DNA of 64,000 nucleotides, taken from NCBI GenBank assembly GCA_976551045.1, contig CDPCPM010000238.1, forward strand, positions 2,914,001 through 2,978,000, written 5' to 3'. The notes below the pieces were generated by a model. That model was not told where the DNA came from and ran no database searches. It was given only the letters and a program-made list of their open reading frames with translations. Below are positions 1-60,266 of the stretch, in pieces (the stretch's first letter is position 1; the number at the start of each line of letters is the position of its first letter). Source of the stretch: Glaucostegus cemiculus (lineage: Eukaryota). The position numbers were made by a program, and so were the translations under genes.

Positions 1-283
1 GACTAACGTATTAACTATTTTAAGTAGGTATCCTTGTCCGCAACCAATCATGATGTGAAAAACAAATACTGTAATGCCTGATTGATGCATGATCATTCCT
101 TGTAAGGTCATCGTTTGCACCTCTGAAAAAAGTATAAGAATGTATGTAAGCTGATGTACTTCACAGACCACTGGGTCCAGGACATGAGTGTCCGACCTGA
201 TGCTCTCTCCTTGGATCAAATAAAGGAAGAGGTTTGAAAGAGATTGTTGGTCTTTTGAGTTTTCTCTCCGACCGAGTTCGACA
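1..283 (+). mobile_element. 3' part of an LTR (truncated by the window edge)
   Basis: TATAAG at about 133, AATAAA at 219-224, ends in ...CGACA at 283, exactly where homology to 43081 begins; absent from the paralogous block. Confidence 0.6.
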
Positions 284-3200
284 CTTATTCTATCGATATC
301 TTTCGTCACCGGTGTTTGAAATGGTCGAACAGTTTATCATTGTAAGGCGCGTAAGACCGAGGTTCTTCATTCGTTGACATGACCAATTCACACTAAGACC
401 AAGGTGAGAAACAGCAACAAATACCTGATGGAAAGCCATTCCGAGCATAGGATGCTGATCGTAATGAAGAGAGAGCTTAGAGTTGAAACTGCAAGTTATT
501 CACAGTTTAATGATGAGGGTAATAGAGAGATTCAAGAGGTAGTGTGAGAAAACGTATACAATGTGCATCGAGGAAGCCTTGGCTGAGTGACTGCAGTCCT
601 GATGCTCCATTTTAGAGACCACAATGCAGCTCAATAAACTGGAACAAAACTGGGGTGATGCTGCTATTTCAAATATCTCCCAAAATCCCACAAAGCAAAA
701 GAGAAACAATGGGAGATTCATCTGAGCAAATATTTATTAACATGACACAGAAAGGAAGGCATTCGGATGATTACCATGTTGACATTTGTCTGACCTGGCA
801 GTTCACAAATCTTATCTGTTTCTAAAATGGGAGGACTGAGTGTACTTCAAAGCAACTTAGTTGGTGGTAAAATCGTGCTGCCGATCTAATGGTCGGTAGT
901 GTCGAAATTAAGCCCTCTTGTTTTGAAACGGCCATCAGCTTTCACCATTTCTGGGTTTCTATGTGCTCCCAACGAACAGAATCAAGGTTCTAATTACATC
1001 CCAATCGCCCTCCCATTTTGAGCAATTATGAGCCTTGACTTTCCACGAATCCGTGGGGATGTTACACTCTTTGTAAGAAGCTTTGTGACCATCATTGAAT
1101 TACATCTCCGGTCCGCTCAGATTTCTGAGTTGTGTGGCTCTTTCGAGTATGTAACACTTGTGTAACACAAGTCTTGTCTATTGGATCCGGCTGAACATAA
1201 TTGAGACCTCATTGTTGTTGAGTTTGGCTGGGAGACGATACCAACGTTGTTTAGCTTATTTGCGGAGGTAATTCTAGTGAGAGATAGCTTAGTTTAACAT
1301 TTCAGTTCCTTTGAGGTGTCTAATTCAGAAATCTGTCTGCGGCAGAGATCACTGTTTTCTGCCAAGACTGGGGTCTTGATCTTCAGATACCCCTTTTCTC
1401 GGAAGGGATAAAATTGACAGCAACTTTGGTATTTTTGTGCATGTATACATATTAATTGAGTAATTCTCCATTAAGTGTGGCTGTCCTCCAATAATCGACT
1501 CTTCGTTGTGTCCAGGAAAGGAGCAGGGACTTGGGCCAATTGCTGTGCGCTTACAAAGATAAGCCGGCTGGTAAAATGTGTGCCACATTTGAGCACATGT
1601 GCGGGATATATTCCTGTTGATTAATAGAAGGGATTGCTGTGTTAGCACCGAGGCGACAATTGAATAAGATTACAGATGCACTCTTAGTTTAAAATACGGT
1701 TTTAAATATTTCCGAGATACTCCCTGCATCTCTGAAGTTTCGTTAGAATAGATTTGTTCCATGTTAACCAATGCGGAAAAGCAAAGGAAAGCACAAAAAA
1801 ATGTGTCTTTTTAAGTGTTTAATTTACTTGGTTTTGTTTTCAAATGCTTAAATATTTTTGATAGTCTCATAAAAATCAGGATCTTTTAAAATGTCATGTG
1901 CAGTTCTAGCCAGATCTATGGCCTAATTGTGAATCTAGTTTTCTCTTCTGTAAGTGAGGCAATTTTACCCAGCTCGCGAGATAATCCTTTGTAATGTCAA
2001 GCCCTAAAGCCTGCCTGCCCTCATTGCAGAAAAAGATTCCAAATGTTTCCAACAAAGTTCCTATTGGCATAAATGTTTCAACTAAATTTTAATTTATTCT
2101 TTTGGTAAGGCCATCACCGAGCTGTGTTGGATTTCTACTGACTGGAAAACTAACGCTAATCAGTATGCAGAAGTGACTGGAAGCACTCAGAATTCCAGGC
2201 AGCAACGGCGGAGGGAGAAATCGTGTTACCACTTCAAGTCCACAATTTTTCACTGGGTCATGAATATCAATATTTAATATTTTTCTGACTCCCCATATGG
2301 ACCTGGGATTGCCAATGTTTTCTGCTTGAGTTTAGATTTCGAGCATCTGCAACGTTCTGTTTTCCATTAATTACCCTGTGAGCTAACTTGATAAGAGCTG
2401 AACATTGAGAGGCATGAACTTCCCCTCCTTCAGTCAAGACTTTAAAAATATTGTGAAAGGCTTAAGCCCAAAAGTATTTTCCCGACGGGCACCAATTGTC
2501 GCCTCAATCCAGTTTGACTACATGTTTCCTATTCCATTCACTCGGCTCATAATCGAACATGGACGAGTACAGAACAGGAACAGGACATTCGACCAAGCTG
2601 TCTGTGTCAAACATCATGTCAAATTAAATTAAATCTCTTCTACTTGCACATGATCCATATTCCATAATTCCCTGCATATTCGTGTGTCCATCCAAAAGCC
2701 TCTTAAGTGCACCATAGAATCTTCTTCTAAATTAATCTGCTTTAATGTCTAGGCAATTTCCCATTCCTGCCAGTAAATTACCTCTAATTGCCAGCGCTCT
2801 CATTATTTTTCGTGAATAGAAACCATGTAACAGCTTGTCACATGTTTTTAAGAGTCCGTATGAAGATCATCCACACCGGTTAAGTGCAAGGACAGGACTT
2901 TCAACTAACTCTCAAATATATTTTCCACCTCCTCTTAGTCTGCGAGACACCCCAAATCTCTGTTCTTTCAAGCATAAGTGCGACCACACGTCAAAGTCAC
3001 CAAATGACAATATAGTACTCTGTGACACCAGGCGGACATTATTTCATGTAATCTACGAGTTTTTATTGTTTTCGAAACAACACCATGACTCCTTTGTAAG
3101 ATGGTGTGCAATACAGTGGAAGATATTACCAAACTTCCGAGGGCTATCGTTATACGGATCAGCTGCAAATGGCCAGACGATTTTCTAAGAGGTCCTTTAT

Positions 3201-3583
3201 GTAAGCGATCACAAAGGAGCATATTTTCCTGACGTCGAATTTCCAATGTCTTTTAATGCGTAAAGTAAAATCTTCACCATTCAATGTTCTTAGAGAATAA
3301 CGAAAACATTAAAATCTGCCGGTTAGTTGTTATTAAGAACTTTGTTTCGTATATTTATTTACACAATGTACACGTCGCAGTATCAGGAAGTATAAACGTT
3401 GCAAAACAGCTTTAAAACATTTAATTGACAGAAGCAGGCCTTCAAATAATTTGTTTAAATTAAACTTCTTGTCCTCTTAAGCGCCAAATCTGATAACAGA
3501 AGTCGTCCGCAACTTAGATGTTTCAGACAGGCGCAATCTTTGACCACAGATTTTCCATGATGTAGCTAGCAGACTCGCGAGTG
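284..3583 (+). repeat. Segmental duplication, copy 1 (direct repeat of 43081-46388)
   Basis: Colinear matches throughout, e.g. 'cgcgtaagaccgaggtt' and 'gatcagctgcaaatggccagacgattttctaag'. Roughly 80-88% identity by eye. Confidence 0.93.
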
Positions 3584-16207: not shown

Positions 16208-16345
16208 TTATCTTCTCGTCTTTTTTAAAACATGTACATTTGCAGACACTGCAAGTTCGTCTTTCTGGATAAATGGTGATGTGTTGTTGGAGCTGGAAAA
16301 CCTCATGGCGGCATAAGTCAATTTGTCAACTGCACGGCTTCTAGG
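16208..16345 (-). pseudogene. Candidate terminal cytoplasmic exon of gene A with an ITIM-like motif; untranslated if the TM-exon stop is real
   Basis: Acceptor tactttcacag|, then PRSRAVDKLTYAAMRFSSSNNTSPFIQKDELAVSANVHVLKKTRR*. LTYAAM is ITIM-like; AVSANV looks like a second motif with Y->S. Intermediate small exons are unresolved. Confidence 0.6.
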
Positions 16346-18047
16346 CTGTGAAAGTAATTCATTTCGGGCATTAGTGCATCATCCAGTGATTGAAGAGGCA
16401 ATCGATGTTGAAATAGAATTGTGACATTCTCATCGACTGTCTGCGACAGATTGCAACCATACTTTTGTCATTTTTAAAATAAATGTTCTTTTCTTGATTT
16501 CACATTCATACTGAAATCTTGTGCTAAGATCCATTCCTGGCCCACAGAACAATGCTAGTGTTCTTGTTAACCTCAAACCTTTTAAACGAACATTAATGCA
16601 ATCTATTTAAGTGAGCAAATGAATAATAAGATCAAAGTAGCTCTTATGCACTAAGTGTTGAGAATGCTAATATTGCAAACTATCAATTTAAGGATCGCCG
16701 GCGGTCATTTTGACCTGCTGCGTTCATGGTTAAGTTGCACATTGAACTTGTCTAGACAATTGACAGAAAATGCACTGATCGCTGGGGAACAGATTTGGAT
16801 TATAAATCGACACCCCAGACTTGGTACAATGAAAGGTGAATCTTTGTTTCCTGGGATTCGGTATCTTCCTGCTTTGGCATAAATTCGGTCTTTATGTGGA
16901 TAACCTGAACGCGGGGTTCAATCAGTTCTTTCGGGGCATTATCTGGCTTTTTAAAAATAGTTTCTGGCGTTGTTTTAGGATGCTGAGTAGAATGATGTTT
17001 CCATGGTTCTTTTCCTTATGTGCTTTTTAAGTTTGAAGTTATTTTTAGTGGAATCACTATCAAAGCTAGACCCCGAAAATAAGGGAAAGTAAATATCGAC
17101 TGTGTAAAAGGGCCAGACAGGTTAAAGGCAGCGTGTAATCTGCTTTACCATCCGGTGATGTGGATTCGCAATCTTTGAAATTAATGAAACGTCCAAAAAT
17201 ATCAAAGGATTTACACTGTCGTACTAGATTAAAATGCTTGTGAAATTAACCTTTTGTTATCACCATGTCAATTATTTAAAAAGCATATATTTTCGACAAT
17301 CAGCGAATAATTGCAAAAGTTCCCACATTAATATCCACGATCCACATTCCTACTCACTCGCATAATGCTTATGAGCTTCATTCCTGAATGAATGTTCAAA
17401 GCAGATTCACGAGCAACGTTAAAATCGCATTGTAGGTATTATGAAAATAAACAGTAAATGCAGTTAGATTGGGTTCTTTCTGTGATCCAGCGTTCTCAGA
17501 TCCTAAAGAATTAACACAATATTTCCTTTGGTGAATGTAATATTTCTGTTACTGGTCCACTCTTCTTAGAAACCTGAGAAACTGTTTGACCACACCAGAT
17601 TTGTTTTATTCTCACTCCCTACCAAAGAATTGATGCATTCTGAAAGGAACGGGGAGAAGAATCCATATGCCAACGAGATGAACATTATATTATGATGGGA
17701 ATCGATTTTATTGGCCAAGGTAAGGACTCCTAAAGGTAGAGCCTGGAGGTATGTAGCAGTACCCTTTGTTGGAATACGGTGTTTTGTGCATTATCTTTTC
17801 GTCCCCTTTCAAAATGCGAAACCCAATGTATTTGATCTTGATGTTAAATAAAACTGTAAAATAGTAAAGAACTCAGCCACCATGTTATTTCTCAAAATTA
17901 AAACAGGAGGTATTCATCAGGACGGCAATTAGCAATCACCTGCTTAGAGCCAACACAGAATGTCAAAATCTACACAGAATTGTTTATGCTTTAAAATATG
18001 GAACTACAAAGATAATAACTAGTTGCAGATCATGAGAAATAACAGGG

Positions 18048-18071
18048 GTGTGTGTGTGTGTGTGTGTGTGT
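18048..18071. repeat. (GT)n microsatellite
   Basis: Direct reading. Confidence 0.95.
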
Positions 18072-18188
18072 AGTTGTTGAATGAACTATTCGCATGAGAA
18101 GTCATTTTCGCAGTAAATGCCATTAACGTGTCATTTACTAATAACATCGCTAAGACCGACAGCACTGTAAAATATGTAAGGTTCTTAC

Positions 18189-18287
18189 CATGTTGCACAT
18201 TTCATCTGAGCCTTATCAAAATTATCGTCAAAACTAAAATTGCCAATCCGCCCACAGCGCATCCGATAATCAAGTTTCCATCAACGC
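18189..18287 (-). CDS. IgSF receptor gene A, transmembrane exon with in-frame TGA at 18204-18202
   Basis: Acceptor ctccataag|, donor G|GTAAGA, 99 nt. Reads GVDGNLIIGCAVGGLAILVLTIILIRLR*NVQH. Predicted product about 243 aa. Confidence 0.85.
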
Positions 18288-18545
18288 CTTATGGAGCAAG
18301 AGAGAAACAGGAAAATGTGAAGCCCATAACATACAGAAATATATACACATGCATGAATTTGGAGACGACACAGAGCTCCTCAATGGGTACATTCGCTACT
18401 GAGTATCTTGTACATTGCTCTTTCATTTTGTAGAAATATGGTTCATATTTTCCCCTTCTCCTCATGTTTGAACGGTTATCAATTTACATCCAAATCTAGT
18501 TAGACCTGTACAAATGCTCCCAGCTGTAAATACTTCCAGTTTTAC

Positions 18546-18830
18546 CTTTTTTTATGATGTAGCTGATCGCCGCGGGCACCGTGAGAGAGGAGTGTGATAC
18601 CAAACAGGTGTAAACAGCAGGTTGCGTTTTTTCCAAAAAACTGGAAGCCTCATAGAATCCTTCCACGGTCCTGTTTTTCACAGTATCTATTCCGGTCAGA
18701 ATTTCCTCATTATTTCTTCGCCAGGAGATTTCTAATTTCTCCGGATAAAAGGCAGCCGTTTTACACACTAGTTTCCGAGAATGCGGTGAATCTACTTCAA
18801 TGGGAGTGATTTTCAGGGGAGTTGGGGAAG
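18546..18830 (-). CDS. IgSF receptor gene A, C1-set domain exon
   Basis: Acceptor tattgaag|, donor G|GTAAAA, 285 nt. C1 motifs LVCKTAAFYP, ISW and YTCLVSHSSL. Confidence 0.93.
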
Positions 18831-20268
18831 CTTCAATAGAAGAAAAATACATTAGATATTTTTGTTTCCTTCCAACGAACGTTTTCTCGCTTGTCTCGCC
18901 AGAGAATGATGGCACACTGCTATTATGATGAGTTATCCGCACTGTCGTTTTGAACGTTTCAGCTGATTCTTATTTCGTAAACTGTTTTACTGTCTGCGGG
19001 AAACTAACATGACTAATTCAAACAATAGGAAGAGTGCGAATCTAAGAGCTGGTGGGATGCGAGGGATATGTCTCTGTTCCGTAGAAATGTCAGATTTAGC
19101 CCACGATCTGAGTTGGTTTTGGACATCTGTGTTTGCTTCAAGAATAAACATTTTGGACATTTTATTAATTTCAAGGATTGGGATGTGTGCAAAGTCCAAG
19201 TTGTCACAGTTTTCTACAGTGAAGGGGTATGGTGCAGTATGGGTGGAAATCGTGTCCTCACAATTGTTTAGGCAGAATTTTAGTGTCTGAGATGAAGTTT
19301 TCCGTTGGTGCAAATTTCACCAGCAGAAACTTCTCCCGAACGTGAACTGAGCGATGATTATTTGCCATGGCATGGAAGTCTTGTTATGCTGGTAAGTGAG
19401 TATGGCCGTATGGATCATAGCACCCATTGAAATGGAGGAACTCAGATGGAAAATCAGAACTCCGTGCATTTCGTCGATTCTACCACCCTCTCCACTTTTC
19501 TCAGTACACTCGGAGAGTAACGCAAATAGTCCTGCCGAAATCGACAGGTTTACACTGACGTCATTGGAGAATCACAACCGTGGAAAAGAACAACCTCTTG
19601 TTTCTCTCTCACCAGATACAACATATATCTGTCTTAGTTTGAACATTTCCGAAACTACTGGATTCGCAATTTGAAGCAGTGCGTCCTAAAATATGTATGG
19701 TGTTATATACTTTACTTCTGACTGTTTAATAAAGCTGTCTTGCTGAAGTGAAGTAGTTGCCTTTTAATGTTGCATAATGCACCCGAACTAGGCAGGAGAT
19801 TGCACCCATTGTCCTTCATCGGTGATATGGAATCTGGCTTGAGGTTGTTACTATATATTTTGTTTCATTATACTTCCTGGGAAACAATTCTAACAGCATT
19901 TCAAAATTACTACTTTGGATTTATCACGACTATAATCCTGGACAGTAGCGCAAGATTGTGCGATGAGAATCTAAAGGTCTACGCCGACTTGAATATAAAA
20001 AAAATGTCCGGAGAAGCATGAAAGCACGAAAAGAGCAAACTGTTTCTGTCTGCATAGATGCGGCGCGACCTGTTGAATACTCCAGTATTTTTTTTTTGTT
20101 TTACCTGGACTTCCAGTCTCTGTCGATGTTAGTTTTCAAGGTAAGAGATGAACTGAACGCCGCTGGAACCTTGTTGCATAACAGGATTTTCATTTTATCT
20201 CAATCAGTGAGCTTTACTTACATGATATAGGACTGAAGATCTGGATTTCCCGGTACAAGGACACTTAC

Positions 20269-20574
20269 CGAACACAGTTAGCTGTGTGCCACTTCCATTA
20301 CCGATATATTGTTGCTGTACCTTTACTTGACAGTAATAGATCCCGGAGTCTGCGCCAGTCACATTAAACAGAGCAAATGCACCCCTGCCTTTATTTATTT
20401 TAAATTGTTTTTTGCTGTCTGGTTCTATAAATGTCTCCTCGCCCTCTCTCCACCAATAAACATCAGGGATATCTTGAAATAACGGATATCTGCAGAACAT
20501 GGAAACATTTCCACCTCGGCGGACGCGCAAATCTGCAGGGAATTGGTCCACATTGTTTGAGGTTACTGCGGCAG
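20269..20574 (-). CDS. IgSF receptor gene A, V-set domain exon with J-like C-terminus
   Basis: Acceptor ttttggcag|, donor G|GTAAGT, 306 nt, phase 1-1. Translation has V hallmarks: VSMFC, VYWW, ADSGIYYC, GNGSGTQLTVF. Confidence 0.93.
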
Positions 20575-20768
20575 CTGCCAAAAAAATTGAGCAAAAACAG
20601 AGAAAATAGTTGCACATGATGGACAAGGATAAAAAGTGACACAGAAGACAGAAATAAAATTAAGAGCTAACGAGAGCGGCATTGAATCGGTATTACTATT
20701 AAATTTACAGTACATAATCAAGGTAGAATATTCTAAAATAAGATTTGGTATTCAGAAAATAAGCCTAC

Positions 20769-20823
20769 CTTGCCAAAATATGCTCAGAAGAGCCATGTGC
20801 CGAATTGTAATATCCACACACAT
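20769..20823 (-). CDS. IgSF receptor gene A, exon 1 (leader): MCVDITIRHMALLSIFWQ
   Basis: ATG at 20823, 55 nt, phase-1 donor G|GTAGG. Same length and MALL motif as the gene B leader; splices in frame to the V exon. Confidence 0.8.
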
Positions 20824-22568
20824 GTTACAAAAAAATTCACCAGTGCAAATTAGAGTTGGAGGTAAGTCGAATAAATAAAAGTTCATGAGTAAATGTATAA
20901 AACATACGATGACCACAAAGGATATCACATGATAGTTTAAGGGATTTTGAGTATAGTTCTGCTTAGGCGGACTGCCGTGTCAGGCCTGTGTCTCCTCCCA
21001 TCTCTTGGTGCTTTCTTTCAGTCTGAGCTGCAATGCTCTTCCAGCTCCTTCCGGGTTACTGGGTTCAAAAATCTACCTCACGCCATTTATTCACTCTTTG
21101 CCCTCTTCTAGATTCTGAACATAATAATGCGGGTCAGTGCCATGGTTCTGTCTCCAAAACATCAGCGGTGGGACTTCTTCACACTGGAAGAGGTATAGTG
21201 AGAGTAGGCAAGTATTCCTTGCTGGGTACATGGGTGATTGTGAGCTTCTAATTTCTCTCATTTTCTCCACCTCTGGGGCGGCCAAATCAAGAGGGATTGA
21301 TTCATTTTCCCCAGTTTAATCACAAAGGAACAATAACATCATTTGGGAATGTAGTTTGCGAAATCTATTTCCTTTCACTGACATCTGTAATCTAACTCCA
21401 GAATAGTGATATTGAAAATTTTTCTTCTGTTTATTTTAATTGTGTTTCTTAACATTATCGAACTCGTGGATTTTATTTATTAGCGTAATATGAATAACAA
21501 TAATTTCGAGGGTAGGGACATGTTCGGCACAGCTTTGTGGGCCGAAGGGCCTGAATTGTGCTGTAGTTTTTCTATGTTTCTATGAAATACAAGAATGCCC
21601 GGCACAGAGAAGAAAGATAGGATATAAGTCGTCACACTCGTGAGGCTCTGCACTGAAATAAAAGTGGATTAACCAATTATTGCTCGCAGACTGATGAAGT
21701 CAATTAAACTGCCTTGAACGTGTGTTATTTTCTGTCGGACGTAGTGTTATTGTGATACAATTAACACTGTGATAAACTCTATGATTTTGGATTCTGAGCA
21801 CATATTAAAAGGTACAGAAACAAAGCATACAATGTGGAGATGCGGGTATTATTTCAGTCTTTTTTTCTGTAATCTAATTGTCCGTTGTTCATCATCCGGA
21901 CGTAGTAACTACTCATTACGAAGGAATAATTCTATTAGAGTTACATATTTTGTATATTATGGATCTGTTTTCAATTTTTTATGAACTAATCGAGCAGTTT
22001 TTATCAATGGATATTAAATAACATTGTGTCATTAAAAGAAGGTTATAGGCCCATTCCTGTCTCGTCGATGCGACCTGTGCAAACTAAGAACGTGGAACAG
22101 AAAAAAGAACTGTCTGTGATGACATACTTTCCAGGCTATGGGATGTTGATTTTTAATGAAGTCAGAGCTACTGATTTTTTAAAAAAGTTTAATGATGACA
22201 CTAACGCAAAGCTGGAAGTATCAATGCGAGCAGCTCTCTGCTTTGGGGCTTGGGGAGTGTTGCCACAGTGACTATGTTTCTGTGAAACAGAGTATTGTGA
22301 TTGCTAACCCCATGCCAAATACTTTAATAAAAGGCTGATATGCCAATGAAGTAAAGAGGAGTAGTTGACCTTTGAAATGTTTGTTAACTATATTCTTTGG
22401 TTGCGGAAAAATAATAGCAAACATTTACATTCCCTCCAACATGGAGATGAAATGATGAACGGTACGCTCAAACTCGTGAGACTTGGCTGAGCCCAAAACA
22501 TTACATGTTTTGTAAATGAAAACACTGAGTATTTTTCAAGACCAATCCATTTGGCAGTAAAATAGAGG

Positions 22569-22782
22569 CAAGAGACTGCAGATGCTGGAATCTGCAGCAA
22601 CAGACAAAGCGCTGGAGGAACTCAGCGCGTCAGGTAGCATCTTGGAGGGAAATGGACAGTCAAGTTTCAGACCGAGACCCTTCATCTGGATTACAGCCAG
22701 TCCAGACGAGGAGTCTCGACTCAAAACATCGTCTGTCCGTTTCCCTCCGTGAATACTGTCTGGTCCGCTGAGTTCTTCCAGT
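22569..22782. mobile_element. Palindromic Penelope pLTR-derived short element with degenerate hammerhead-like cores
   Basis: 'gagactgcagatgctggaatc...gctggaggaactcagc' ... 'gctgagttcttccag'; two inverted half-units. Confidence 0.7.
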
Positions 22783-25700
22783 TGGCTGTAAACAGGCCAG
22801 GAAACTAGAGGGTTGAAAATATCGGAATTAATCCTTCTAGTCTTCAACCCTGGCTTCTGCATTCGCATTTATAAATATTGGAAAGTTTGAAAAGATTTTT
22901 AAAGTTTTTAATTTTTAGTATTTAAATTACAGTTTATACATGTATATTTTACTCTTTGGATATGTTAAATGCTTTTCGAAGAAATGTTTTGCCAATCTGG
23001 ATAAGTCTAGGAATTGTCTCTCAAACTATTTTCCTATTTTATATGTGTGGATATGTTGTCCACCCCTCTTGATAGCACCTTATAATGTTAAGCTCTTACT
23101 GTGTACATGGCCTCATCACAGAAACATTTCCAAATGTTCTTATGAGCTCGAATTTGGAGAATTGCTGCAGATAATTTTGTTTTGCTCTCTTACCAACGTC
23201 ACTAGCGAGCTCATCTGGGTTGCCACTGACTACATAATCAACACCAGCGGTTACTATAAACAATGCAGAAGTTATTGGAAGTAAGCAGTGCGTTTGGCAG
23301 CTTCTTCAGAGAGAGAAATAGGTCGAGAAGCTTTCATCACATCATAATCCCGATTAATTAAATCTGGTTTTTTTTCTCCACAGATGCTCCCTGATTTACT
23401 GAACATCTTACATCCTCAGCGTCGACAGTATTTGCTTCCATCCACACTCAACCAATCCACACCAACCACTGCCTTCACCCCCTTCTGCCCCACCGCTACC
23501 ACTTCGCTGCCTTGTGTCCTTTCGCATGTCATTTGTGAATAAAGTGAAACGTCTTGGTCCCAAAAGAAACTGCAAGGGGTCACCAATTAGCACATCTCTG
23601 CAATATGAGTACATATTCCTTAATCCCATCTCTTGAGTCTTTACGCTTTAACTGTTTCCACATTCAATCCAAAGAATTACTTGCAGTTCTCGTTTTGTTA
23701 ATAGACTCCTATGTGGAACCGTTTCGATACCCTTTTTTCAATTCTGTATTAAATAAATGAATTATGGTAAAATGCATGAGTCCACAAAGTTCAATTATAG
23801 CTTTTTGTTTTAACTGAGATATCAACGTTTCCTTCAGTTATTGAAGTGAAAATTACACAACTCCTGGGCTCGCTCCAGATCTCTGTTCTTGTGATACACG
23901 CAAAAATACACTTAATTCACAAGTAAGTACTCTGAGACCTATAACGGCCAGGAAACTATATACTTATAAAAACAGTATTTGTGGCGTATTTTAGAGTTTT
24001 CTTCCATTGAAGCAAGGTAATTTGTCCTTTTAAGTATCTTATCTTCGCCTTAAATGGCTTCATTCAGATTCCAAAAGGTAGCAGCATTTTCTTTTTTAGC
24101 TTAAAATAATCGACATTTTTTTCCAACCAGTCCTTTTCACGACACATTAGGTTGGCGGAATAAAAGAAAATATTTCATCTGACATCGATATTATGCTGCC
24201 TCGTACAGCAAATTGCAATCAACCGGTGTTCTGAGAAAAATATCCGAATATTTAAAACCTGCATTTAACTGATATCAAGATAACCGATCAGCATTTGTGT
24301 TTTTAATGACATGCCGTGAATACACGAAACACACGATTTTCAGAAATAAATTCTTTAAATTAACTTCCTTACCTTTCACCTTAGCTTCAAATGTGATAAC
24401 TTGAGCATATGCAACCTACTTGCTTGAGGATGGTGAAACTTCTAACCACCGGGAGTTTCCATGATGTCACCAGCAGACTCGTGGGTGCATTTCTATTCTC
24501 CCGCTGTGTGTCACCTCTTGTTAACTCAATCTGAAAAATACAATTGTGGTGGGTTATTAACTTAATGTCACTAGCTTAGTTGAGATTCACCTTTTCATTT
24601 CAAAGACAGAAAAGTTCGCACTTAAGGGTTTGTAATCGCATTTCAAATACAGAAAGCTAAAATATATGTCTCTTTCGATAGATGACCGACACCTCCATCA
24701 CAATGGAACGTAGTACAAAAAAACACATGCAGCAACATTGCACAATAGGTTCTACACCTGCGGCATGAACTTTCATTTAGATGGCGATTTAAATCATTAC
24801 CACAACTCGATGGAGCACAGCAGAAACAATTTTAAACAAGTTTCTGATCCACTATAGATTATGCGACACGTCAGTTAACCGTTGAGCTCAAGAAAGTGAG
24901 ATACCAGAAGGAGTTCAAAAGAGAAGAGCAACAGAAAGCTTTGTGGAGGAAATTCCAGAGTTAAGGTTTGACATGATCCACAGTGGGAAAGAGATGATAA
25001 CTCGGGGTGCACGGGAGATCATTTGAGGTACACGATGAGTTGTAGGCCTGATAAATCAGATAATATCTGGAGGAGCGAGAGCATCGAGCGATTTGAAAGC
25101 ATAGATGTCAACAAAAATATTGGGGTTTTGCTGCTCTCATTGTCAAAGTAGGCCAGTGAGCGCATAGATTGCAGGTAAAATAGGGCGTCTTGCGACTCAT
25201 TCACAACTCATAACCACTCACATAGTCATATAGACAAACACACATAATTAGTCCCAGACATCAGCGCGCAGATATAGGCCTGCAGAAATGTAATTGCGCT
25301 CACGCGTGCAGACAGAAACACAAGCACAGACACACAGGAGATACAATGGAGTGTAAGAACCGACCTTGCCGTTTGCTTTGTTCTGTACCTACTGGGACTG
25401 CTTTGCCTGCTTGAAACGGTTCAATCCGATTCCCTCCCGCCATGACATCCGTGAGACTCAAAGAAAAATCATCTCACGTTCTTCGTGACAGTGACGCCAC
25501 ATTTTCTAAATTATAAAGAATCTAGCCTTGCATTTCTGTGACATAGCCTATCTGCACACCTGTATTTCTGTAACACCACCATCTTCCTACTAATGCACTG
25601 ATAGCTGACCACGCCGTTAATCTTCATCTTCCATTAAGTTACATTCATCCAAATCTCTGTGGTCTACCACACGGCATTTCCCTGATGACCTATAATTCAG

Positions 25701-26894
25701 TGCTCGGGACTTGGATTATTTCGGGTGCTCCAGCTCTTCAAATTTACAATTGCCAGCTGAGATAAATGTCTTCATTCCTTTGTTATTTCTTTTCTTCGAT
25801 AATAGGGCTAGTCAGGCCCACTTCCATCTCCCCATTTCTCACAATGTCGAAAGACATTTCAGGTGTTTCCTGTCATGAAAACCTGCATGAATCCATTCTA
25901 TCTAATTAATAGCAACCCGCTCACTCTCAATAATCTTCAGATGGTCGGTAGAAGATGTAATCGTTTACCTTTGGGATTGAAAGGCAGTACCATTGTTGTG
26001 TTTGCCACCATCAATATCCTGGGGGTCACCATTGACCAGAAATCAATTGGATCAGATGCATAAATACCATGGCTGCCAGAGCAGGTGAGAAGCCGGGCAT
26101 CCTCCGCCGAGTGACTTCCGAATAGAAGTCACCCGCAGTTTTCCTGTAAACCGTTAAACTTTATTCCTCGTGACGACTTAGGGAGATGCACGGTGTCTAT
26201 CTGATCATTATGGAGAATCTGTTTAAGCCGTTGCTTGAACGTCGCTACAAAGCTTAAGTGAGTTTATTATCGAGGCTCATGTTTCCCCAAACATGGGCGT
26301 ATCCCATCTGCACAAGCTCTTCAACAACTAGTTTTATGACAGGTAGCTTTACGTACTTACCTTCCGTAATTTAAGTGTTCCCATTCAAATCGTACGTTTG
26401 CGTAACGACAGGTTGTACGGCTATTTATCATGTCCTGCATGCATCTTTTAATCAAACTCCCGTTCTTTTGTTGGCTGCATAACTGAAGTAAAATTCCCTG
26501 TGGGAAAATAGTATTCATTAACGTTTGAATTTAGATGTTAAGAATAATATTTAAGTGTAAATGTAGATGGGGAATACCTATTAAGAGTGACAGGGTAATC
26601 AGCATTAGGATTGGCCAGTAATCACTGTTGTGGGTTTGGGGCAAGTTGACGAGGGTGCAGATCATATGTAGTTAAGTTTAAGACATTTAATCTTGAAAAT
26701 ATACGTTCGCACAAGAGCAGAAGTGCCTAGGAGATTGCTCCAGTTAGATAAGAGGGGATCAAAGTTAATGTTCAGTGAAATAATTTCAGAGAGAATTTGG
26801 CCGAAGCTCTTGCATCACCTGCGTCTATTTCATCTCGCATCCCCTGTTATAAGGTGCGTATCGTCCCCGTTATTTATTGCTTTTGATATTTTAT

Positions 26895-27352
26895 CTGAAC
26901 TTTGAAACGATTAACATATGAGGAGCGTTAGATGTCTCTGGGCCTGTACTCGATGGCGTTCAGAAGAATGAGAGCAATCTTATTGAAACCTACCGGATAC
27001 TAAATGACCCGCTTAGAGAGGACATGGAAAGGATGGCTTTATTAGCAGCAGAGGCTAGAATCCAGGGCACAGATTCAGAATAAAGGGACCTCCCTCTAAA
27101 ACTGAGAGGAGGAGGAATTTCTACAGCCAGAGGGTGGTGAATCTGTGAGATCCATTTCCACAGAGAGCTATCAAGGCCAAGTCATTGGGTGGATTTAAGG
27201 CGGAGCTTGATAGTTTCTTGCTCAGTGTGGCAGTTACAAGTTACGGGGAGATGGCGGGAGAATGAGGTTTAAAAAAATCAGCCACCATTGAATGCCGGAG
27301 CAGAATCGATGGGCCGAATAGCCTAATTCTGTTCCTATATCTCATGGTCTTA
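26895..27352 (+). mobile_element. CR1 LINE 3' fragment
   Basis: 'gggcctgtactcgatgg...cttattgaaacctacc...agccagagggtggtgaatctgtg...gggccgaatagcctaattctg...tcttatgg'. Confidence 0.85.
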
Positions 27353-39559: not shown

Positions 39560-40330
39560 CTCTCTGCCCGCAATGGCCATCCTGAGGCCCCCGTTGCAGG
39601 AAATGTCAACTCCTCTTCCCATTCCCACTAGACCTCGCCGTCCTCGTCCATCTTAAATGCTAGGGTGACGGATAATCAAACTAGAAGAACAACACCTCAC
39701 ATTCCACCTGGAAAGATTAGAGGCCAATCGCATGAACACTGGATTGTGTCTAATTTCAGTCAACACTCACATCTGTGTCCCCATCCCCTCCTTTTGATCC
39801 TCCTCTGATCCTTCCATTTTTGTTTCCTTTCCTATTTCTCCTCTAGCCCCCATTACCCGGTTTCGTCCCCTTCATCCTCTTCCATCCACCCTCGTCATAC
39901 ACTTCACCCATTGGTTTCCCTACCCATCTGATTCCATATGGCATTTACCTCGCCCAATGTATCCCATTATCAGCGTCCTTACTCAACTCATTCCAGCATT
40001 TGTAGCCTTCGGAGCTCCACTTATCACTGTCCTGCCTTTTGTCTTTACCTGTACTGTCCCTGCCCTGGACTCATCATCCTTTTTGTCTGCTTCGCCGATG
40101 ACCCACTTACCTCTTCACCAACCCCCCCTTCCTGCCCGTCATCCCCCATAGCTGGGCGATCCATCTACTGGTCCTTTTCTCATTCCACCCGGTCACCACT
40201 CCATACAGGCTACCTTCTCTCTACGCTGTCAGTTATAATGCAAGGTCTCGACCCGAAAAGTCGATTATTCCTTTCCCTCCACACATGCTGCGTAGTCACT
40301 GAGTTCATCTAGCAAGCTTTTCTTTGCCGC
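39560..40330 (+). mobile_element. Penelope-like 3' fragment in the gene B V-C1 intron
   Basis: KLEEQHLTFHLG-like sequence, pyrimidine-rich UTR, 'ggtctcgacccgaaa' pLTR end. Confidence 0.75.
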
Positions 40331-41733
40331 TCCATAGTCTCCTGTCTGTTTTGAGAATTCTTATTTTTCCCTCTTTGCATTAACAATGATTTACTAAATC
40401 AGGATTATCGCTAACTTTGAAAGAGATATTACTGGTTATTCCCAGACGCAAGAGTGTCCTGCCGGCCTCATTATTACAGAATGTTACTGTTGATCTGTTT
40501 GAAATATAAATAATCAGGAGAATTTCAATTGAGGGTGTCGTTTTCTTGGTTTTTTTTCGGAACGTTTATCAGCCGTTGGTGGAGTAAAGAGAAATTATGA
40601 ACTACAAATATTGGCGCCTATAGTTAAAGGAACAACAAACAGAGAGGAACTCTGTTGGTCAGTCAGCAAAATCCCTGACATCTTCCTGTGCTTTGCAGAG
40701 ACTGAATGTAAAAGAAAACAGTGGGCTTGGAGTTAGACAGATGTTTATACCGGGCTATTCGTCTCCCAGACGTGGAACCTTTTGGGTAAGTATTACACTA
40801 CATCTCTCCATGGGTTCCAAGATTCATTGTGGAAATACAAGTATGATAGCGTGATCTGGAGGTTTGGCTCAGGTGATTGGCCGAAGAATCAGACGATAAA
40901 AATGCGTAACCCTCGAGAGCACTCTGTTGGTGGATGATCTGTGTTTCAATTCCTTTTTTCCCCTGGAACTCCCTAACCTTTGATTTATAACCCTACCCAA
41001 AATCACCACCATCTTGAGAGATTATTTTTCTCCCTTCCTTACATGTGTATGGACAAAGAAATATAGACTTTGAATAATTCAGAAAAACAACGTTAGAATG
41101 ACGATTTGAAGTAGGTGCGACAAATAGATACTTGATGTTGGACTTAACAAGTGTTAGAGCTGGGTTTTGCTCTTCCGAACTTGTAAGCTCGTCGATAGGG
41201 AATAGAACACTTCAGTGTTGCATGGCAGGCCCTAAAAAGGGAATGTTAAAATTGTTCATATTTTCCTTCCTGGGTGATAAGAAATCGGGCCAGCCTACTA
41301 CAGCCATTCGCATTAATATCAATGTTATTTCCATATCTTGCTTGCAAAGCAACTTAAATTCACTTGAAAATTAATTCCTTGGTTCGGAAGAACTTTCGCG
41401 GTAATCATGGTAAAACACAAAGGTAAAACTAATTTTGGGCCGTAGCGTTAAATAGGAGACAGCTAATCGACAACAATGGAAAAGAGTCCGGAGACGTACG
41501 ATAAGATAAACAGAATAAACTCCATTACTCGCCGCCCTAATGCTGCCTCAACTGTAATTATTTTCTTCCTCTCTCTTTAATTTTGAATATCGAGCCCCTG
41601 GAATATTGTGTTAATGTGTGAAACAAATTCATTCTCACTGTTTCTTTTATCAAGTAGCAACACTTCATATTATCCCCATCACCAAGCTTGAAGTAAATGG
41701 CATAGAAAGTACTTTCCAAACAGACACACTCAC

Positions 41734-42039
41734 CGAACACAGTGAGCTGGGAGCCGCTTCCATTCCCGAATGATTGTCTCCGATGCTTTGCTTCACAGTA
41801 ATACATTCCGGAGTCAGCGACATTCACATTCAGGAGAACAAGTATTCCCCTTCCCTTTTCTACAGCAAATTGTTTTCTGCTGTCGGGTTTTACAAACGAC
41901 GTCCTGCCTTCCTTCCACCAATGAACGTCAACAGTATCTTGTGATATTGGAAATTGGCAGAACATGGTAACATTGGTACCGGGTGCGACGTCCAAGTCCT
42001 TCGGTAATTGAGATACTTTGCTCGAAGTTGCTTTGGAGG
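41734..42039 (-). CDS. IgSF receptor gene B, V-set domain exon with J-like C-terminus
   Basis: Acceptor ttttccgacag|, donor G|GTGAGT, 306 nt. Motifs VTMFC, VHWW, ADSGMYYC, FGNGSGSQLTVF. 57/102 aa identical to gene A V (hand count). Confidence 0.93.
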
Positions 42040-42243
42040 CTGTCGGAAAATAAGCAAGAACTTTAAAAACAGTTGCACACACTGGACAAAGGAGAAGAAC
42101 CGAGAGATGTAAAGGAAAAAAAATTAAGAGTCAAACAGGGTCAAATAGCTGTACCACCGTGTCTAATTGTTCATTGTACAACCAGGGTTGAAGTTTCTAA
42201 AATGGACAGATCGTTCAGAAACGGCACACATAACTAGGTATAC

Positions 42244-42298
42244 CTAGCGAAATAATAGCCAGAAGCGCCATGTAGCAAACTGTAACTTTATCTGACAT
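42244..42298 (-). CDS. IgSF receptor gene B, exon 1 (leader): MSDKVTVCYMALLAIISL
   Basis: ATG at 42298, 55 nt, hydrophobic core, phase-1 donor G|GTATA. Homologous to the gene A leader. Confidence 0.82.
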
Positions 42299-56140: not shown

Positions 56141-56291
56141 ATGAGCTCGAAGAGGCTTCGGGCCGAGTCGGAGAATGGGGCTGGAAGGAAGAGGCAGCTG
56201 AAGCGGGAGGTTGCAGAACTCAACCCGTTGTTGGTGGAAGCGAAGGAGCGAGTGAGCGAGGCCTGGAGCCGGGGCCTCGAGTACTCACACG
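56141..56291 (+). CDS. OGFOD1: OGFOD1 (uS12/RPS23 prolyl 3-hydroxylase) coding exon 1
   Basis: MSSKRLRAESENGAGRKRQLKREVAELNPLLVEAKERVSEAWSRGLEYSH resembles the vertebrate OGFOD1 N-terminus (…VAEAWSR…FSH). Donor G|GTGAG; GC-rich context. Confidence 0.9.
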
Positions 56292-56396
56292 GTGAGGGAA
56301 GTGCAGAGGGCCCCGGAGGACGGGCTGCAGCTCTCAGACCGCAAGGAGCGGCGGGGGCGGGGTTCAAAGCAGGGCAGGCAAAGGTGTCGAGGTCGG

Positions 56397-56610
56397 AAAC
56401 ACAAGAGACTGCAGCCGCTGGAATCTGCAGCAAACCAAACTGCTGCGTGAACTCAGCGGCCCGGGCAGCGGCTGTGCGGGGACAGGAACAGTCGGCGGTT
56501 CGAGTCGAGGTCCTGCATCAGGACTCGGGCTGGGTCTCCACCCGAAACGGCAGCGATTCTTCCCGACCCCAGATGCTGCTCGACCCCCTGAGTTCCTCCA
56601 GCCGTTTGTT
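56397..56610. mobile_element. Palindromic Penelope pLTR-derived short element in OGFOD1 intron 1
   Basis: Same architecture as 22569-22782. Confidence 0.7.
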
Positions 56611-57699
56611 TCCCAAGTGTCAGTTTGACTTAATCTTGTGTCAGTTGGAAGGTCATATTCGAATTTCATTCGAGGAGTTGAGCTAATCAGGGCTGACACT
56701 TTAATGCGGTGGAATGTATATATAAAAACACGTGAAGTGGAAGCAATAGTGGACTGAACAGTCCCTTGAGACTGTTTCGCCAAATGTTATGATGTTATGA
56801 TGAAACAGCCGGCTGATACCATCCCTGGTTCATTCCTGCCTGATCCTCAAATTCTCTGATTTCCTTAGTGTCTGAAAAATCTATTGATTTCAAACAATAT
56901 GCTCAGTGACTGAACAGCCATGTCCCCATGGGCTGGAGAATTCTAAAGATTTGTAATACTCTGCATTATGGAACCTGTCATCGTTTCAGTCACCTAAACA
57001 ACCAGTCCCTTATTTTGATACCTTCCTCACTAACTCTGAATTCTCAAGCTCGGGAAAGAGCCTTTTGTGATCTCCTTTGCCAATCTATCAAAGGATCTTG
57101 TATGATTAAATGAAAGTTTCTCATTCTTCTAGTCTCCAGTGAATATTGGCCATTCTTACTCAGTCTCTCTTTGCTGAACTGCCTCCTCATTCCAGAAATT
57201 AATCTCTATACTGTACATATTGAAAGGCAAAGCATATTTTTAGGAACAGAGAACAAAAGTGCACATAGTTCTCAAACTGATGTCTCAGCAAAGTGTCACA
57301 AAAGGCTTTCTTTTGTACCCATTGTGCCATTTGCCTTGAATTTCTTGCTGTATCTTGGTTACTTTCTGCTCAAGAACCAGTGCAGCAACATCCCTTCATA
57401 TACCAATATTTATCAGTCTGAACTATTATCTCAGTTTCTCCCCCCTCTCCTCCTCCCTCATTTGCTGAGTATACCCTGTATTTTTAGCTGTATATTGCTC
57501 TTACATTTTTTCTGCTCAAAGATCATTCCTCACAATTACCTTGATATCATCTTTTAAGAGTAGTCTATCTTTATGATTTTGCTTGTACATTCTAAATGTA
57601 AAGTTTTCTGGAATTTTTAACTTCTAATCCCTCTGAATAGTGGGTACCACAGGAATTGGTGATGAGGCCCAATTTCACATAATATCAATAGTTCAGATG

Positions 57700-58870
57700 G
57701 AATCAATATTAGTTTTTCCAAGGTGATTGATGTTACAATGCTGGGTGGCAATAGTGAAGTGTAAGGAGGATCATAGAGGCTTCTGGCTGAATGAATGGGC
57801 AAGAATGGAATGAATAAAATGTAGAAAAATATGAGCTCATCCACTTTGCTAGAAAAGATAGAAAGGCAGAGTATTTGTGTGAATAGTGAGAAATCAAAAT
57901 GCTTGTTGTTAAAAGTGACTTGTTTGTCCATGTATATGAATGTAAGTAGGCTAATGCTATTTTGACCTTTACTGCAAGAAAATTTCAGTGTAAAAGAAGG
58001 AATGTCTTGCTCCAGGGTCCTAGTGAGACCGCTGGAATATCGTGCATTTTTCTGGTTCTCCTCACCTACAGAAGGATATACTTGTGACAAAGGGTTTGCA
58101 GTGAATATTCACCAGGCTGATACCTGGTATGGCAGGTTTGCCATATGTGCAGAGGGTAAGTAAGTGGAATCTATACCATCCTGGATTTAGAGGAATGAGG
58201 GATGATGTCATTGAAAGACTTAAAATTCTTAGCCCTAGGTGGTAATGTGGACCATGAGGGGTTGTTTACCAGCTTAAGCCTAAGTGAATTGGCAAGGTTA
58301 TAGCAGATGGAATATATCGTGGAAAAAAAAGTGAGCTCGTCTACTGTAATAGACAAAGTAGAAAGGCAGATGATTTTTGTTTGAGTTTGGTGGTTTTTCA
58401 CAACTTGCAATCTGCTTCCAGTTGGCTTTACTATATAAGACATGCAAATTAGAAATGATTAGGAATGTATTTTTACTCTAACTTTTGACTCACTGAAAAA
58501 TAGTTTTTGCTTCAGAGTGCAGGTTGCAGTATGAATCTAGGGTTCATTTTACCTTGGATGGAAATGATTTAATGTTCTCTGGAAGGAAAAAAAGTACTGG
58601 AGTTGGGATGAGGGGTTGATCGTTCCCTGGACATCAGTATCTAAAACCTGGGTCATAGTTTCAAAATAGAATCAGACATTCAGACTGGAGATGAGAAGAC
58701 ATTTTTTCACCTCAGAAGTGGTAACTAAGTGGAGTGTGCAGAACTCAGTTGCCTACACCCAGATTGATAGGTTTTTGTATGTTAAAAGAATCTAGGGATT
58801 TGGGATAAGTGCAGGATATTGGCACTGAGGTTAAATATCAGCCATGATATGATTGAGGGTGGAACAGGCA
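57700..58870 (+). mobile_element. Old fragmented CR1 LINE in OGFOD1 intron 1
   Basis: Degenerate 'gtgagaccgctggaatat', 'ttcaccaggctgatacctgg' and 'tcagccatgatatgattga'. Confidence 0.65.
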
Positions 58871-59230
58871 CGGGAAGCCAAAATTAGCGCACAAGGTTTG
58901 ATTGAAATTGATGTGGAGTACAAGCACAGTGATCTGTGCATCTTGCATGTTCAAACATTCATGCCTAGGCGTAGAGGTCAGCACATGCTGAGAAGAATTC
59001 AAGTGTAAGTCAGGCAGTGCAAGTGGAACCAATACTGCATTTATTGGTACTTGTGATGGGCAACAAATATTTTCCTTTTATATTCTTTAGGTGACTATGT
59101 TCATTCAAATTCCCTTTTATTCTTGAAAACAATTGAAATTGTAAGAAAAAAACATTTTATGCCTAATTTACTGCAGCATGACTCCTTCTTGACAAGATAT
59201 TTACCTCTGCCTTTCTGCCTTCCTTTACAG

Positions 59231-59379
59231 AGCAGGGTCTGCTGGTCAGCACTCAGCCATTCACACACTGTGTAATACCAGATTTTATCCAGAGTCAGTC
59301 GTTCCTGACAGGACTTCAAAATGAGCTTCTACAATTAAACTTTCATGAAAAATCCAATGATCTCTATAAATTTAAGCAG
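59231..59379 (+). CDS. OGFOD1: OGFOD1 exon 2
   Basis: tttacag| [50 protein letters not shown] |gtgag. Confidence 0.95.
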
Positions 59380-60266
59380 GTGAGAAGCAGCTTATGCAGG
59401 GAGCAAATAGAAGGGTTGATTGCAGGGAGAATGAAATTAAACTGATATACCAAAAGAACAAGGCCTTTTGCTGTGTGCACATTAATGGCTTTGTGCTGAG
59501 GAGTTACTGATTTTATTGCTCTGTATGCATGAAGCCTGTGTGTCATGATGCAACAGATACTTAAGAATGGTGTAGACTGTGAGGTTCTCTCACCAGTAAA
59601 TGACCTAGTTGCCCAATGTAGACAAGAGAATCATTGTATAACTGACTCTTGAAGTGATAGATGAATGAACAAAAGAAATAAATAATTCATTAATTATCAT
59701 TTACACAACATTTTACAGCCAAATGACAACTTTTTATAGTGTTGTCATGGTTGATGGTTGTACTGTCAGAAAAACTTCGTACTAAGTTTTGGAATGATAT
59801 AAACTGAGACAATGAGCAGAAACCCTGCAACAGAGGATGAGGTGTGCAATTTTAAATTTTGTAGTGACCTAGGGACAATCACGTTACTTTCCAGTTACCA
59901 TGCTTGCTGTCATTTTTATTTTTTTACCGGAGACAGCAGGTTGCGAGCATCTTTTAAATACTATTTAGAAGTCTTTATTAGCTTATTCAAGGTAAATTGG
60001 AGAGCTTAAATCTGGATAGCATAATACACAGCTAATCTCCATGCAATGATGCCATAAATGACTGTTAATGAAGTGATGAGATGCATTTCTGAATGTAACT
60101 ATTCTGACTGAACTAACAGAATGAGGTTCCAGATGAATATTCAGCGCTAACATTTTGATGGAGGCAAATAAATGGAGCCATTAAAGGGACAATTCTGGTA
60201 GTAAATATAGAGTTAGAACTGATTGACTTTTTTTGTATGTTAATGTTATATATTTTTTCCTGATAG

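What the first reader, a model, noticed from the sequence alone, without database searches (positions are those of the whole stretch)
16208..42298. Tandem cluster of non-rearranging antigen-receptor-like VJ-C1 membrane receptors in a cartilaginous fish
Seen: two paralogues with matching exon sizes (55/306/285-294/99 nt, all phase 1). Each has a V domain whose G strand carries a J-like Gly motif (GNGSGTQLTV / FGNGSGSQLTV) in the same exon, followed by a true C1-set domain. Known: C1 domains are largely restricted to Ig/TCR/MHC/B2M/tapasin/SIRP-type molecules, and germline VJ(-C1) genes (NKp30-, SIRP-, PRARP-like) are discussed as relatives of the pre-RAG receptor. Inference: this may be an uncharacterised chondrichthyan NK-type receptor family sitting next to OGFOD1.
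Basis: partly seen in the sequence, partly recalled or inferred. Interest (0 to 1): 0.8.

Follow-up and report, generated by a model that had tools for sequence, protein, structure and literature searches.

The report
Shark paired SIRP-like receptor cluster
These two genes are tail-less members of a large family of immune receptors found across sharks, rays and chimaeras that look like fixed, non-rearranging antibody chains but come in inhibitory and activating pairs, most resembling the human 'don't-eat-me' receptor SIRP.

Summary
The two window genes (leader-V-C1-TM, exons 55/306/294 or 285/99 nt, all phase 1) belong to a cluster of about 60 V-C1 genes on two contigs of this genome. OGFOD1 lies inside the cluster and NUDT21 at its left edge. 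Relatives occur in sharks, rays, chimaera and coelacanth, auto-named SIRPa-, B7H6-, tapasin- or IgL-like. Members carry either a neutral TM with ITIM/ITSM exons or an Arg-bearing TM. Several opposite-type pairs have near-identical ectodomains, and exon-limited gene conversion is evident (gene B versus its ITIM neighbour: exons 99%, introns 87%). Both window genes have lost their tails; gene A's early stop is shared with a Pristis model. They are not germline-joined Ig/TCR: no RSS, no J-Phe118, a fixed 10-residue FG loop, and a C1 clade apart from Ig/UrIg, MHC and tapasin. Best reading: a paired innate receptor family of the SIRP lineage (V-C1 rather than V-C1-C1). SIRP kinship rests on similarity ranks and a coelacanth bridge, not a tree. 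PRARP identity, expression and ligands are untested. I found no description in ten literature searches, but four key papers were unavailable.

The parts
42244..42298 (-). Gene B leader exon (55 nt, split leader)
41734..42039 (-). Gene B single-exon VJ-type V domain; 304 of 306 nt identical to the neighbouring ITIM-bearing gene (L038)
38481..38774 (-). Gene B C1-set exon; 291 of 294 nt identical to L038
36460..36558 (-). Gene B TM exon, neutral type, divergent from that of L038
35766..35812 (-). Gene B first cytoplasmic exon; one base shorter than the L038 counterpart, runs into TAG (short tail, no ITIM)
32373..32456 (-). Decayed remnant of gene B's last ITIM/ITSM exon (approximate limits)
20769..20823 (-). 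Gene A leader exon (55 nt)
20269..20574 (-). Gene A single-exon VJ-type V domain; 87% identical to Pristis XP_051884096.1
18546..18830 (-). Gene A C1-set exon (285 nt)
18189..18287 (-). Gene A TM exon, neutral type, with in-frame TGA at 18204-18202; the Pristis model ends at the same residue
16208..16345 (-). Degenerate last ITIM/ITSM exon of gene A, downstream of the stop
283..3583 (.). Upstream region of the next gene (L038, just left of the window); 81% like 43080-46388 upstream of gene B: the gene B/L038 duplication unit
56141..64000 (+). 5' part of OGFOD1, embedded in the cluster; continues to about C238:2.999 Mb
   Evidence: identified by short recalled motifs; the Pfam search found nothing; 5' limit inferred

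Best explanation
A germline-encoded family of paired immune receptors of the SIRP lineage, with a two-domain VJ-C1 ectodomain, expanded to dozens of genes at one locus in cartilaginous fish. Shown: gene structure, cluster, two TM classes, ITIM/ITSM-type tail exons, exon-limited sequence homogenisation, tail loss in both window genes. Inferred mechanism: neutral-TM members bind a self ligand in trans through the V domain and recruit SHP-1/2 through their tyrosine motifs. Arg-TM members pair with an ITAM adaptor (FcR-gamma or CD3-zeta type) and fire when a pathogen or altered cell engages the same surface. Gene conversion keeps the partners' binding domains matched. Genes A and B are non-signalling decoy or adhesion forms; gene B should compete for the ligand of its inhibitory twin L038. 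Odds: works as paired receptors about 0.8; closest kin is SIRP about 0.55.
For: Cluster: 59 of 60 V hits and 63 of 72 C1 hits on C238/C53; 43 distinct V proteins among 50 stop-free V exons, median identity 37%. Of 55 C1-bearing loci read in stretches of up to 10 kb, a TM exon was found in 44, 14 of them with Arg near the outer end; 27 of 55 had ITIM-type exon hits, some degenerate; 12 of the 14 Arg-TM loci had none (counted from the output). Opposite-type pairs with near-identical ectodomains: L045/L051, L047/L054, L050/L049. Conversion: gene B vs L038 exons 99.3% and 99.0%, introns 86-88%, four-fold sites 2 of 87 vs 11.3 expected, P=5e-4; L044 vs L046 synonymous differences 1/66 in V vs 23/69 in C1, P=4e-7. 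The same signature is described for paired CEACAMs (PMC5112662, passages); Arg-TM pairing with FcR-gamma is shown for Xenopus XFLs (PMC2413239, passages). SIRP link: coelacanth XP_005987622 joins the family in the C1 tree (95/97*), its top 24 hits in this genome are family genes, and its top PDB hits are SIRP-gamma and SIRP-alpha (73.7 and 73.1 bits; most light chains 58 or less). SIRP-alpha ranks first for Callorhinchus P0022 and fourth for the family profile, above all ordinary IgG heavy chains.
Against: No SIRP sequence could be put in a tree. One C1 only, not two. For the ray protein P0015 SIRP is not among the best 60 PDB rows, nor for two single V exons; for P0022 the margin over UrIg2 and light chains is 1-4 bits; UrIg2 and an Ig chimera outrank SIRP-alpha. 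The C1 model's structural matches to MHC II, UrIg2, B7-H6 and SIRP-gamma lie within 1.3 Z. The coelacanth V does not join the family V clade (unresolved, long branch). SEP-domain (NSFL1C-type) genes lie on C7 and C37, not C238/C53. The Arg-TMs mostly lack the Asn of the NxxR motif. The four-fold-site test also flags pairs with poorly aligned introns, and two activating/inhibitory pairs are only borderline (P 0.07, 0.03). Positive selection on V was significant in 0 of 13 pairs. No transcript, protein or ligand evidence.
Confidence: 0.68

Rival explanations
1. The family is the chondrichthyan expansion of PRARP (or the amphibian VJC1 genes), already named in other vertebrates; it would work the same way but be a known family.
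For: PRARP is cited as an MHC-associated joined-VJ gene (PMC10751288; PMC11599192). From recall only, non-avian PRARP is V-C1 with an ITIM/ITSM tail and has a bony-fish orthologue, which fits coelacanth XP_005987622.
Against: PRARP is placed in the MHC by PMC10751288, whereas this cluster lies at NUDT21/OGFOD1 in the CTCF region. No amphibian, reptile or bird V-C1 relative appeared among the best 150 hits of the 50%-representative search as far as named (26 family-like proteins looked up: 25 chondrichthyan, 1 coelacanth), nor in a search with the coelacanth protein. The PRARP paper was not available.
Confidence: 0.2
2. An independent family assembled by exon shuffling from an NKp30/CD28-type VJ exon and a B7H6/tapasin-type C1 exon; paired receptors, but no special kinship with SIRP.
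For: The V falls in an unresolved group with NCR3-like and CD28-like V. B7-H6 is the second-best structural match of the V-C1 model (Z 15.5, rmsd 3.1, 184 aligned). RefSeq often names members B7H6-like or tapasin-like.
Against: B7H6-like and tapasin-like C1 domains do not group with the family and their V domains are separated at 99/97*. The coelacanth bridge points to SIRP over both V and C1.
Confidence: 0.2
3. Germline-joined Ig light chain or TCR segments, processed by RAG in germ cells, as known for elasmobranch IgL-lambda.
For: V-C1 layout and split leader; best Foldseek rows are light chains; some RefSeq names say IgL-like or TCR-beta-like; germline-joined IgL exists in this genome.
Against: No RSS near 52 of 52 V exons, although the positive control was weak (1 hit in 7 Ig loci); no Phe/Trp118 in 50 of 50; FG loop fixed at 10 residues in 46 of 50. 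C1 lies outside the Ig/UrIg clade (96/87*). TM and ITIM exons are present.
Confidence: 0.03
4. The family is real but the two window genes are decaying pseudogenes, not decoys.
For: Both have broken tails with remnants downstream; other cluster members have stops or frameshifts.
Against: Leader, V, C1 and TM are intact with canonical splice sites. Gene A's stop is at the same residue in a Pristis model with 87% V identity. A-versus-B V shows pN/pS 0.51, P=5e-4. Gene B's exons are still homogenised with L038, although conversion can also act on a pseudogene.
Confidence: 0.25

Closest known systems
SIRP family (SIRP-alpha, beta, gamma)
   Same: Joined-VJ V domain followed by C1; ITIM tails; clustered paired forms including a non-signalling one (gamma; recalled); best or near-best PDB match for basal members and the coelacanth relative.
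   Different: One C1 instead of two; about 60 genes; activating forms carry an outer-TM Arg rather than the DAP12-binding Lys of SIRP-beta1 (recalled); locus at NUDT21/OGFOD1, not by an NSFL1C-type gene; CD47 binding untested.
PRARP / Xenopus VJC1 genes
   Same: Non-rearranging joined VJ; V-C1 with ITIM/ITSM tail (recalled).
   Different: Reported as MHC-associated and few in number (the latter recalled); sequences not obtainable here.
UrIg / UrIg2 (PMC12227049)
   Same: Elasmobranch single-exon VJ with split leader and C1 domains; high PDB similarity rank.
   Different: 3-11 C1 domains, disulfide-linked Ig-like dimers, single loci in the MHC and AgRC, liver/gill expression; C1 in the Ig clade, apart from this family.
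NKp30 / shark NCR3
   Same: Single-exon VJ; same 10-residue FG spacing in the NCR3-like exon read here; Arg-TM activating mode (recalled).
   Different: No C1; separate NCR3-like genes on C736 (best single-domain PDB match NKp30) fall outside the family V clade (91/95).
Xenopus XFL, paired CEACAMs, LILR/KIR-type clusters
   Same: Neutral-TM ITIM versus Arg-TM classes; exon-limited gene conversion.
   Different: Other Ig domain types; no C1.

Membership tests
SIRP | Single-exon V with joined J-like G strand | tested here: met
   GxG[ST] in register in 42 of 50 V exons, donor directly after the G strand
SIRP | True C1-set membrane-proximal domain | tested here: met
SIRP | V-C1-C1 ectodomain | tested here: not met
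   One C1 per gene in 50 of 50 loci with both domains; a few database models have two C1 or repeated V-C1
SIRP | Cytoplasmic ITIMs in inhibitory members | tested here: met
   27 of 55 loci with ITIM-type exons, some degenerate; database proteins; absent from both window genes
SIRP | Monophyly with tetrapod SIRP | not testable with these tools
   No SIRP sequence obtainable for trees; similarity ranks favour SIRP but not 32, 109, 110
SIRP | Linkage to NSFL1C (recalled for tetrapods) | tested here: inconclusive
   SEP-domain genes on C7 and C37; contigs are short, chromosome unknown
SIRP | CD47 binding | not testable with these tools
   No assay; complex prediction unavailable
PRARP | Orthology by tree | not testable with these tools
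   Paper and sequences not available
PRARP | MHC-associated locus | tested here: not met
   Flanked by NUDT21 and OGFOD1; MHC-type C1 exons are on other contigs; PRARP's location taken from one sentence of PMC10751288
NCR3/NKp30 | Single V without C1, in the NCR3 clade | tested here: not met
UrIg/UrIg2 | Three or more C1 domains in the Ig/UrIg clade | tested here: not met
Germline-joined Ig/TCR | J-Phe/Trp118 and variable CDR3 length | tested here: not met
   0 of 50; 46 of 50 at one length
Germline-joined Ig/TCR | RSS at or near the V exons | tested here: inconclusive
   0 of 52, but weak positive control, and joined genes would have lost their RSS
Paired receptors (functional class) | Clustered inhibitory and charged-TM members with matched ectodomains | tested here: met
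Paired receptors (functional class) | Adaptor association and SHP recruitment | not testable with these tools
   needs experiment

The most novel reading that the evidence does not exclude
This cluster is the cartilaginous-fish sister of SIRP, born with it in the vertebrate genome duplications (CTCF/chicken chr11 versus chr20 paralogon) from a VJ-C1-TM-ITIM receptor. It keeps the two-domain ancestral form, and is the main, so far unnamed, polymorphic self/non-self receptor system of shark myeloid or NK-like cells: a pre-RAG-style receptor diversified by duplication and gene conversion instead of recombination.
Probability: 0.3. Interest if true: 0.85.

Novelty: new variant of a known kind. Interest (0 to 1): 0.66.

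Why it matters
Apart from NCR3, few paired leukocyte receptors are known in cartilaginous fish (my recall). A family of about 60 genes, conserved from chimaera to rays and hidden under misleading automatic names, gives concrete candidates for shark self-recognition and 'missing-self' control. A 2026 survey of human IgSF orthologues dates the SIRP family to Tetrapoda (PMC13262535, table passage), and the SIRP-alpha structure paper left open whether SIRP came from a receptor precursor or from an antigen receptor (PMC2785349). A V-C1 SIRP relative in all chondrichthyan groups and coelacanth would move that lineage to the jawed-vertebrate ancestor and make the question testable with trees and ligand screens. 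Natural matched pairs such as gene B and L038 are ready-made tools for that.

Tried and rejected
RNA evidence: no RNA holder was listed for window 35500-42400; this is no evidence either way. Complex prediction (V-C1 homodimer) was not available. Pfam search for OGFOD1 (PF10637) found nothing, also in controls. A word-index search with the coelacanth protein returned only itself. V-only PDB searches were swamped by multi-domain I-set proteins. Structure searches confirm V plus C1 but do not separate SIRP, B7-H6, MHC II and Ig; SIRP was not listed among the 50 rows for the two-domain model and was row 7 for the C1 model. The ESM Atlas gave only unnamed chordate V-C1 clusters, with SIRP clusters tied close behind for the coelacanth protein. 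Positive selection: ratios above 1 in 4 of 13 V pairs, none significant. Earlier findings of the scan: nothing. Papers not held: Fu 2019 on PRARP, Ohta 2019, the shark NCR3 paper; Dornburg and Yoder 2022 was seen only as a reference. The elephant shark genome supplement held as text has no SIRP, NKp30 or NCR3 entry, but only one file was held. Rejected: gene A's stop as an assembly error (same end in the Pristis model); the 16.2 kb exon as a live tail; NCR3, UrIg and germline-joined IgL membership.
Full report
OBSERVATION. The window is C238:2,914,001-2,978,000 of genome G000. Two minus-strand genes have the stated exons, all with GT-AG phase-1 introns. Pfam calls the second exon V-set and the third C1-set in both. 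A model of the Pristis orthologue of gene A folds as V plus C1 plus a TM helix (mean pLDDT 89), and a model of gene B's C1 matches C1-set domains best. The C1 hallmarks named in PMC2785349 (passages) are met by 52-53 of 55 family C1 exons.

THE WINDOW GENES HAVE LOST THEIR TAILS. Gene A reads a TGA three residues after its TM. The exon at 16345-16208 is a decayed copy of the family's last ITIM/ITSM exon. The Pristis model XP_051884096.1, 87% identical in V, ends at the same residue, so the stop is not an assembly slip. Gene B's first tail exon is one base short and runs into TAG, and a remnant of its last tail exon lies near 32.4 kb.

THE CLUSTER. Searches of the own genome gave 60 V hits (36 at C238:2.64-3.32 Mb, 1 at C238:0.18 Mb, 22 on C53, 1 CD28-like on C19) and 72 C1 hits, 63 of them on C238/C53. 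These are lower bounds and include broken copies. I read 55 C1-bearing loci, not all of them. Among 52 V exons 50 are stop-free and encode 43 distinct proteins, 22-100% identical. Some near-identical copies (99.5% or more, introns included) could be assembly duplicates. NUDT21 sits at the left border. OGFOD1, recognised by short recalled motifs, starts in the window and is followed by more family genes. In reedfish the two genes are 5.5 kb apart on one strand, 1.1 Mb from ctcf, with no Ig-type gene annotated near them (supplement of PMC10751288, one part read). So the array between them is absent in that bony fish.

RANGE. Named relatives come from horn shark, catsharks, sevengill, smooth-hound, white, epaulette, bamboo and zebra sharks, sawfish, electric ray, devil rays, stingrays and elephant shark. 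Where a contig length is shown for several RefSeq members of one species it is the same. Automatic names are SIRPa-, B7H6-, tapasin-, IgL-, TCR-beta- or MHC-II-like. Of 26 family-like proteins looked up, 25 are chondrichthyan and 1 is coelacanth (XP_005987622, V-C1-TM-ITIM). Chimaera sequences interleave with elasmobranch ones in both trees, so the expansion began before that split.

PAIRED ORGANISATION. A TM exon was found in 44 of 55 loci; 14 carry Arg near the outer end. ITIM-type exons were hit in 27 of 55 (a lower bound, some degenerate), and in only 2 of the 14 Arg loci, both degenerate; one Arg locus was not covered downstream. Database proteins show the same two classes. In 9 of 9 proteins chosen for the Arg type an acidic residue follows 17 positions later; most Arg-TMs of G000 lack it. 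PMC2413239 (passages) shows that Arg-bearing NxxR TMs pair with FcR-gamma; the shark TMs mostly lack the Asn, so adaptor use is inferred. L045/L051, L047/L054 and L050/L049 are Arg/ITIM pairs with near-identical ectodomains. Gene B and its neighbour L038 are 304/306 and 291/294 identical in V and C1 but 86-88% in the introns, and unrelated from about 0.8 kb before the TM exon onward; four-fold sites differ at 2 of 87 against 11.3 expected. L044 and L046 share V (1/66 synonymous differences) but not C1 (23/69). Against this: the test is liberal where introns align badly, two Arg/ITIM pairs are borderline, and no V pair showed significant positive selection (0 of 13).

NOT IG, TCR, URIG OR NCR3. 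Position 118 is never Phe or Trp (Asn in 29 of 50, each forming a glycosylation sequon), the FG loop has 10 residues in 46 of 50, and no RSS was found near 52 V exons, with a weak control. In the C1 tree (58 rows; 20 of 78 dropped as redundant or partial) family plus coelacanth form a 95/97* clade apart from Ig/UrIg (96/87*), MHC (97/93*) and tapasin/B7H6-like rows. In the V tree (44 rows; 9 of 53 dropped) the family is one clade at 91/95; NCR3-like, CD28-like and coelacanth V are unresolved outside it. Outgroup labels are mine, from sequence features; only the NCR3-like one was checked against the PDB. Neither tree has a TCR, SIRP or PRARP row.

THE SIRP LINK. The coelacanth protein's best hits in G000 are family genes and its best PDB hits are SIRP-gamma and SIRP-alpha over V and the first C1. 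SIRP-alpha is first for a chimaera member by a narrow margin and fourth for the family profile, but absent from the top 60 for a ray member. The tails with two pairs of tyrosine motifs resemble SIRP-alpha's (recalled). The CTCF region is paralogous to chicken chr20 (PMC7471279, passages), where bird SIRPs lie (recalled, unchecked); this makes an ohnologue origin possible, not shown. SEP-domain genes are on other contigs. Strict SIRP membership fails on domain number; 'works like SIRP' stands.

MECHANISM. Shown: structure, cluster, TM classes, tail motifs, homogenisation, tail loss. Inferred: trans binding of a self ligand through V, SHP recruitment by ITIM members, adaptor-coupled activation by Arg members, and decoy or adhesion roles for A and B. 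Expression, cell type and ligand are unknown.

LITERATURE. Ten full-text searches found no description of this cluster. Seen: PMC12227049, parts 1-4 of 8 and passages; PMC10751288, passages and supplement searches; PMC11599192, PMC13262535, PMC8040251, PMC7471279, PMC2413239, PMC2785349 and PMC5112662, passages; PMC3964593, one supplement file searched. Not seen: Fu 2019, Ohta 2019, the shark NCR3 paper, Dornburg and Yoder 2022; any of these or their supplements may mention these genes, so I put about 30% on a prior mention.

VERDICT. Real; a large, apparently unnamed paired-receptor family of VJ-C1 type, most likely of the SIRP lineage. New variant of a known kind; interest 0.66.

Noticed in passing
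G000:C143:7,615,466-7,620,300 (L150, L157) and C143:7,680,668 (L151): A second non-rearranging VJ-C1 gene: a single-exon V with the CD28H-type EIPPP motif about 4 kb upstream of a C1 exon, with a second C1 copy nearby. This C1 is sister to the Ig/UrIg clade (96/87*). PMC11599192 describes CD28-family genes as single-V. It may be a better pre-RAG candidate than the cluster itself, or PRARP; splicing and TM not checked.
   Followed up: partly
G000:C238:178,751-192,700 (L067, L138): A solitary family member 2.45 Mb from the cluster, V and C1 about 13 kb apart; its C1 is orthologous to Heptranchias XP_067853539.1 (100/99*), a possible conserved founder gene.
   Followed up: partly
L033-L035 (C238:3.006-3.022 Mb): The member just right of OGFOD1 has a Cys-rich juxtamembrane region and a basic tail without tyrosine motifs, conserved in rays and sharks (P0078, P0090, P0130): a distinct subfamily.
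   Followed up: partly
G000:C736:454,095 and 474,271 (L146, L147): NCR3/NKp30-like single-exon V genes.
   Followed up: partly
G000:C67:2,949,869 and 2,965,560 (L148, L149): Joined VJ exons with a very short CDR3 and a canonical J-Phe; group with IgL V; isotype not determined.
   Followed up: no
P0139, P0169, P0174 (turtles): Multi-V ITIM receptors with joined VJ domains whose best hits in G000 are weak matches to this family; identity unresolved.
   Followed up: partly
PMC10751288 supplement, reedfish chr12: Nine genes auto-named SIRPa-like on reedfish chr12 and one on chr9; possible bony-fish relatives, sequences not seen.
   Followed up: no
L043 (C238:2.80 Mb): Two TM-like exons in one gene, a neutral one and an Arg-bearing one with a stop just after it.
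   Followed up: no
window 30211-30394: A run of 184 N among microsatellites and repeats between genes A and B.
   Followed up: no
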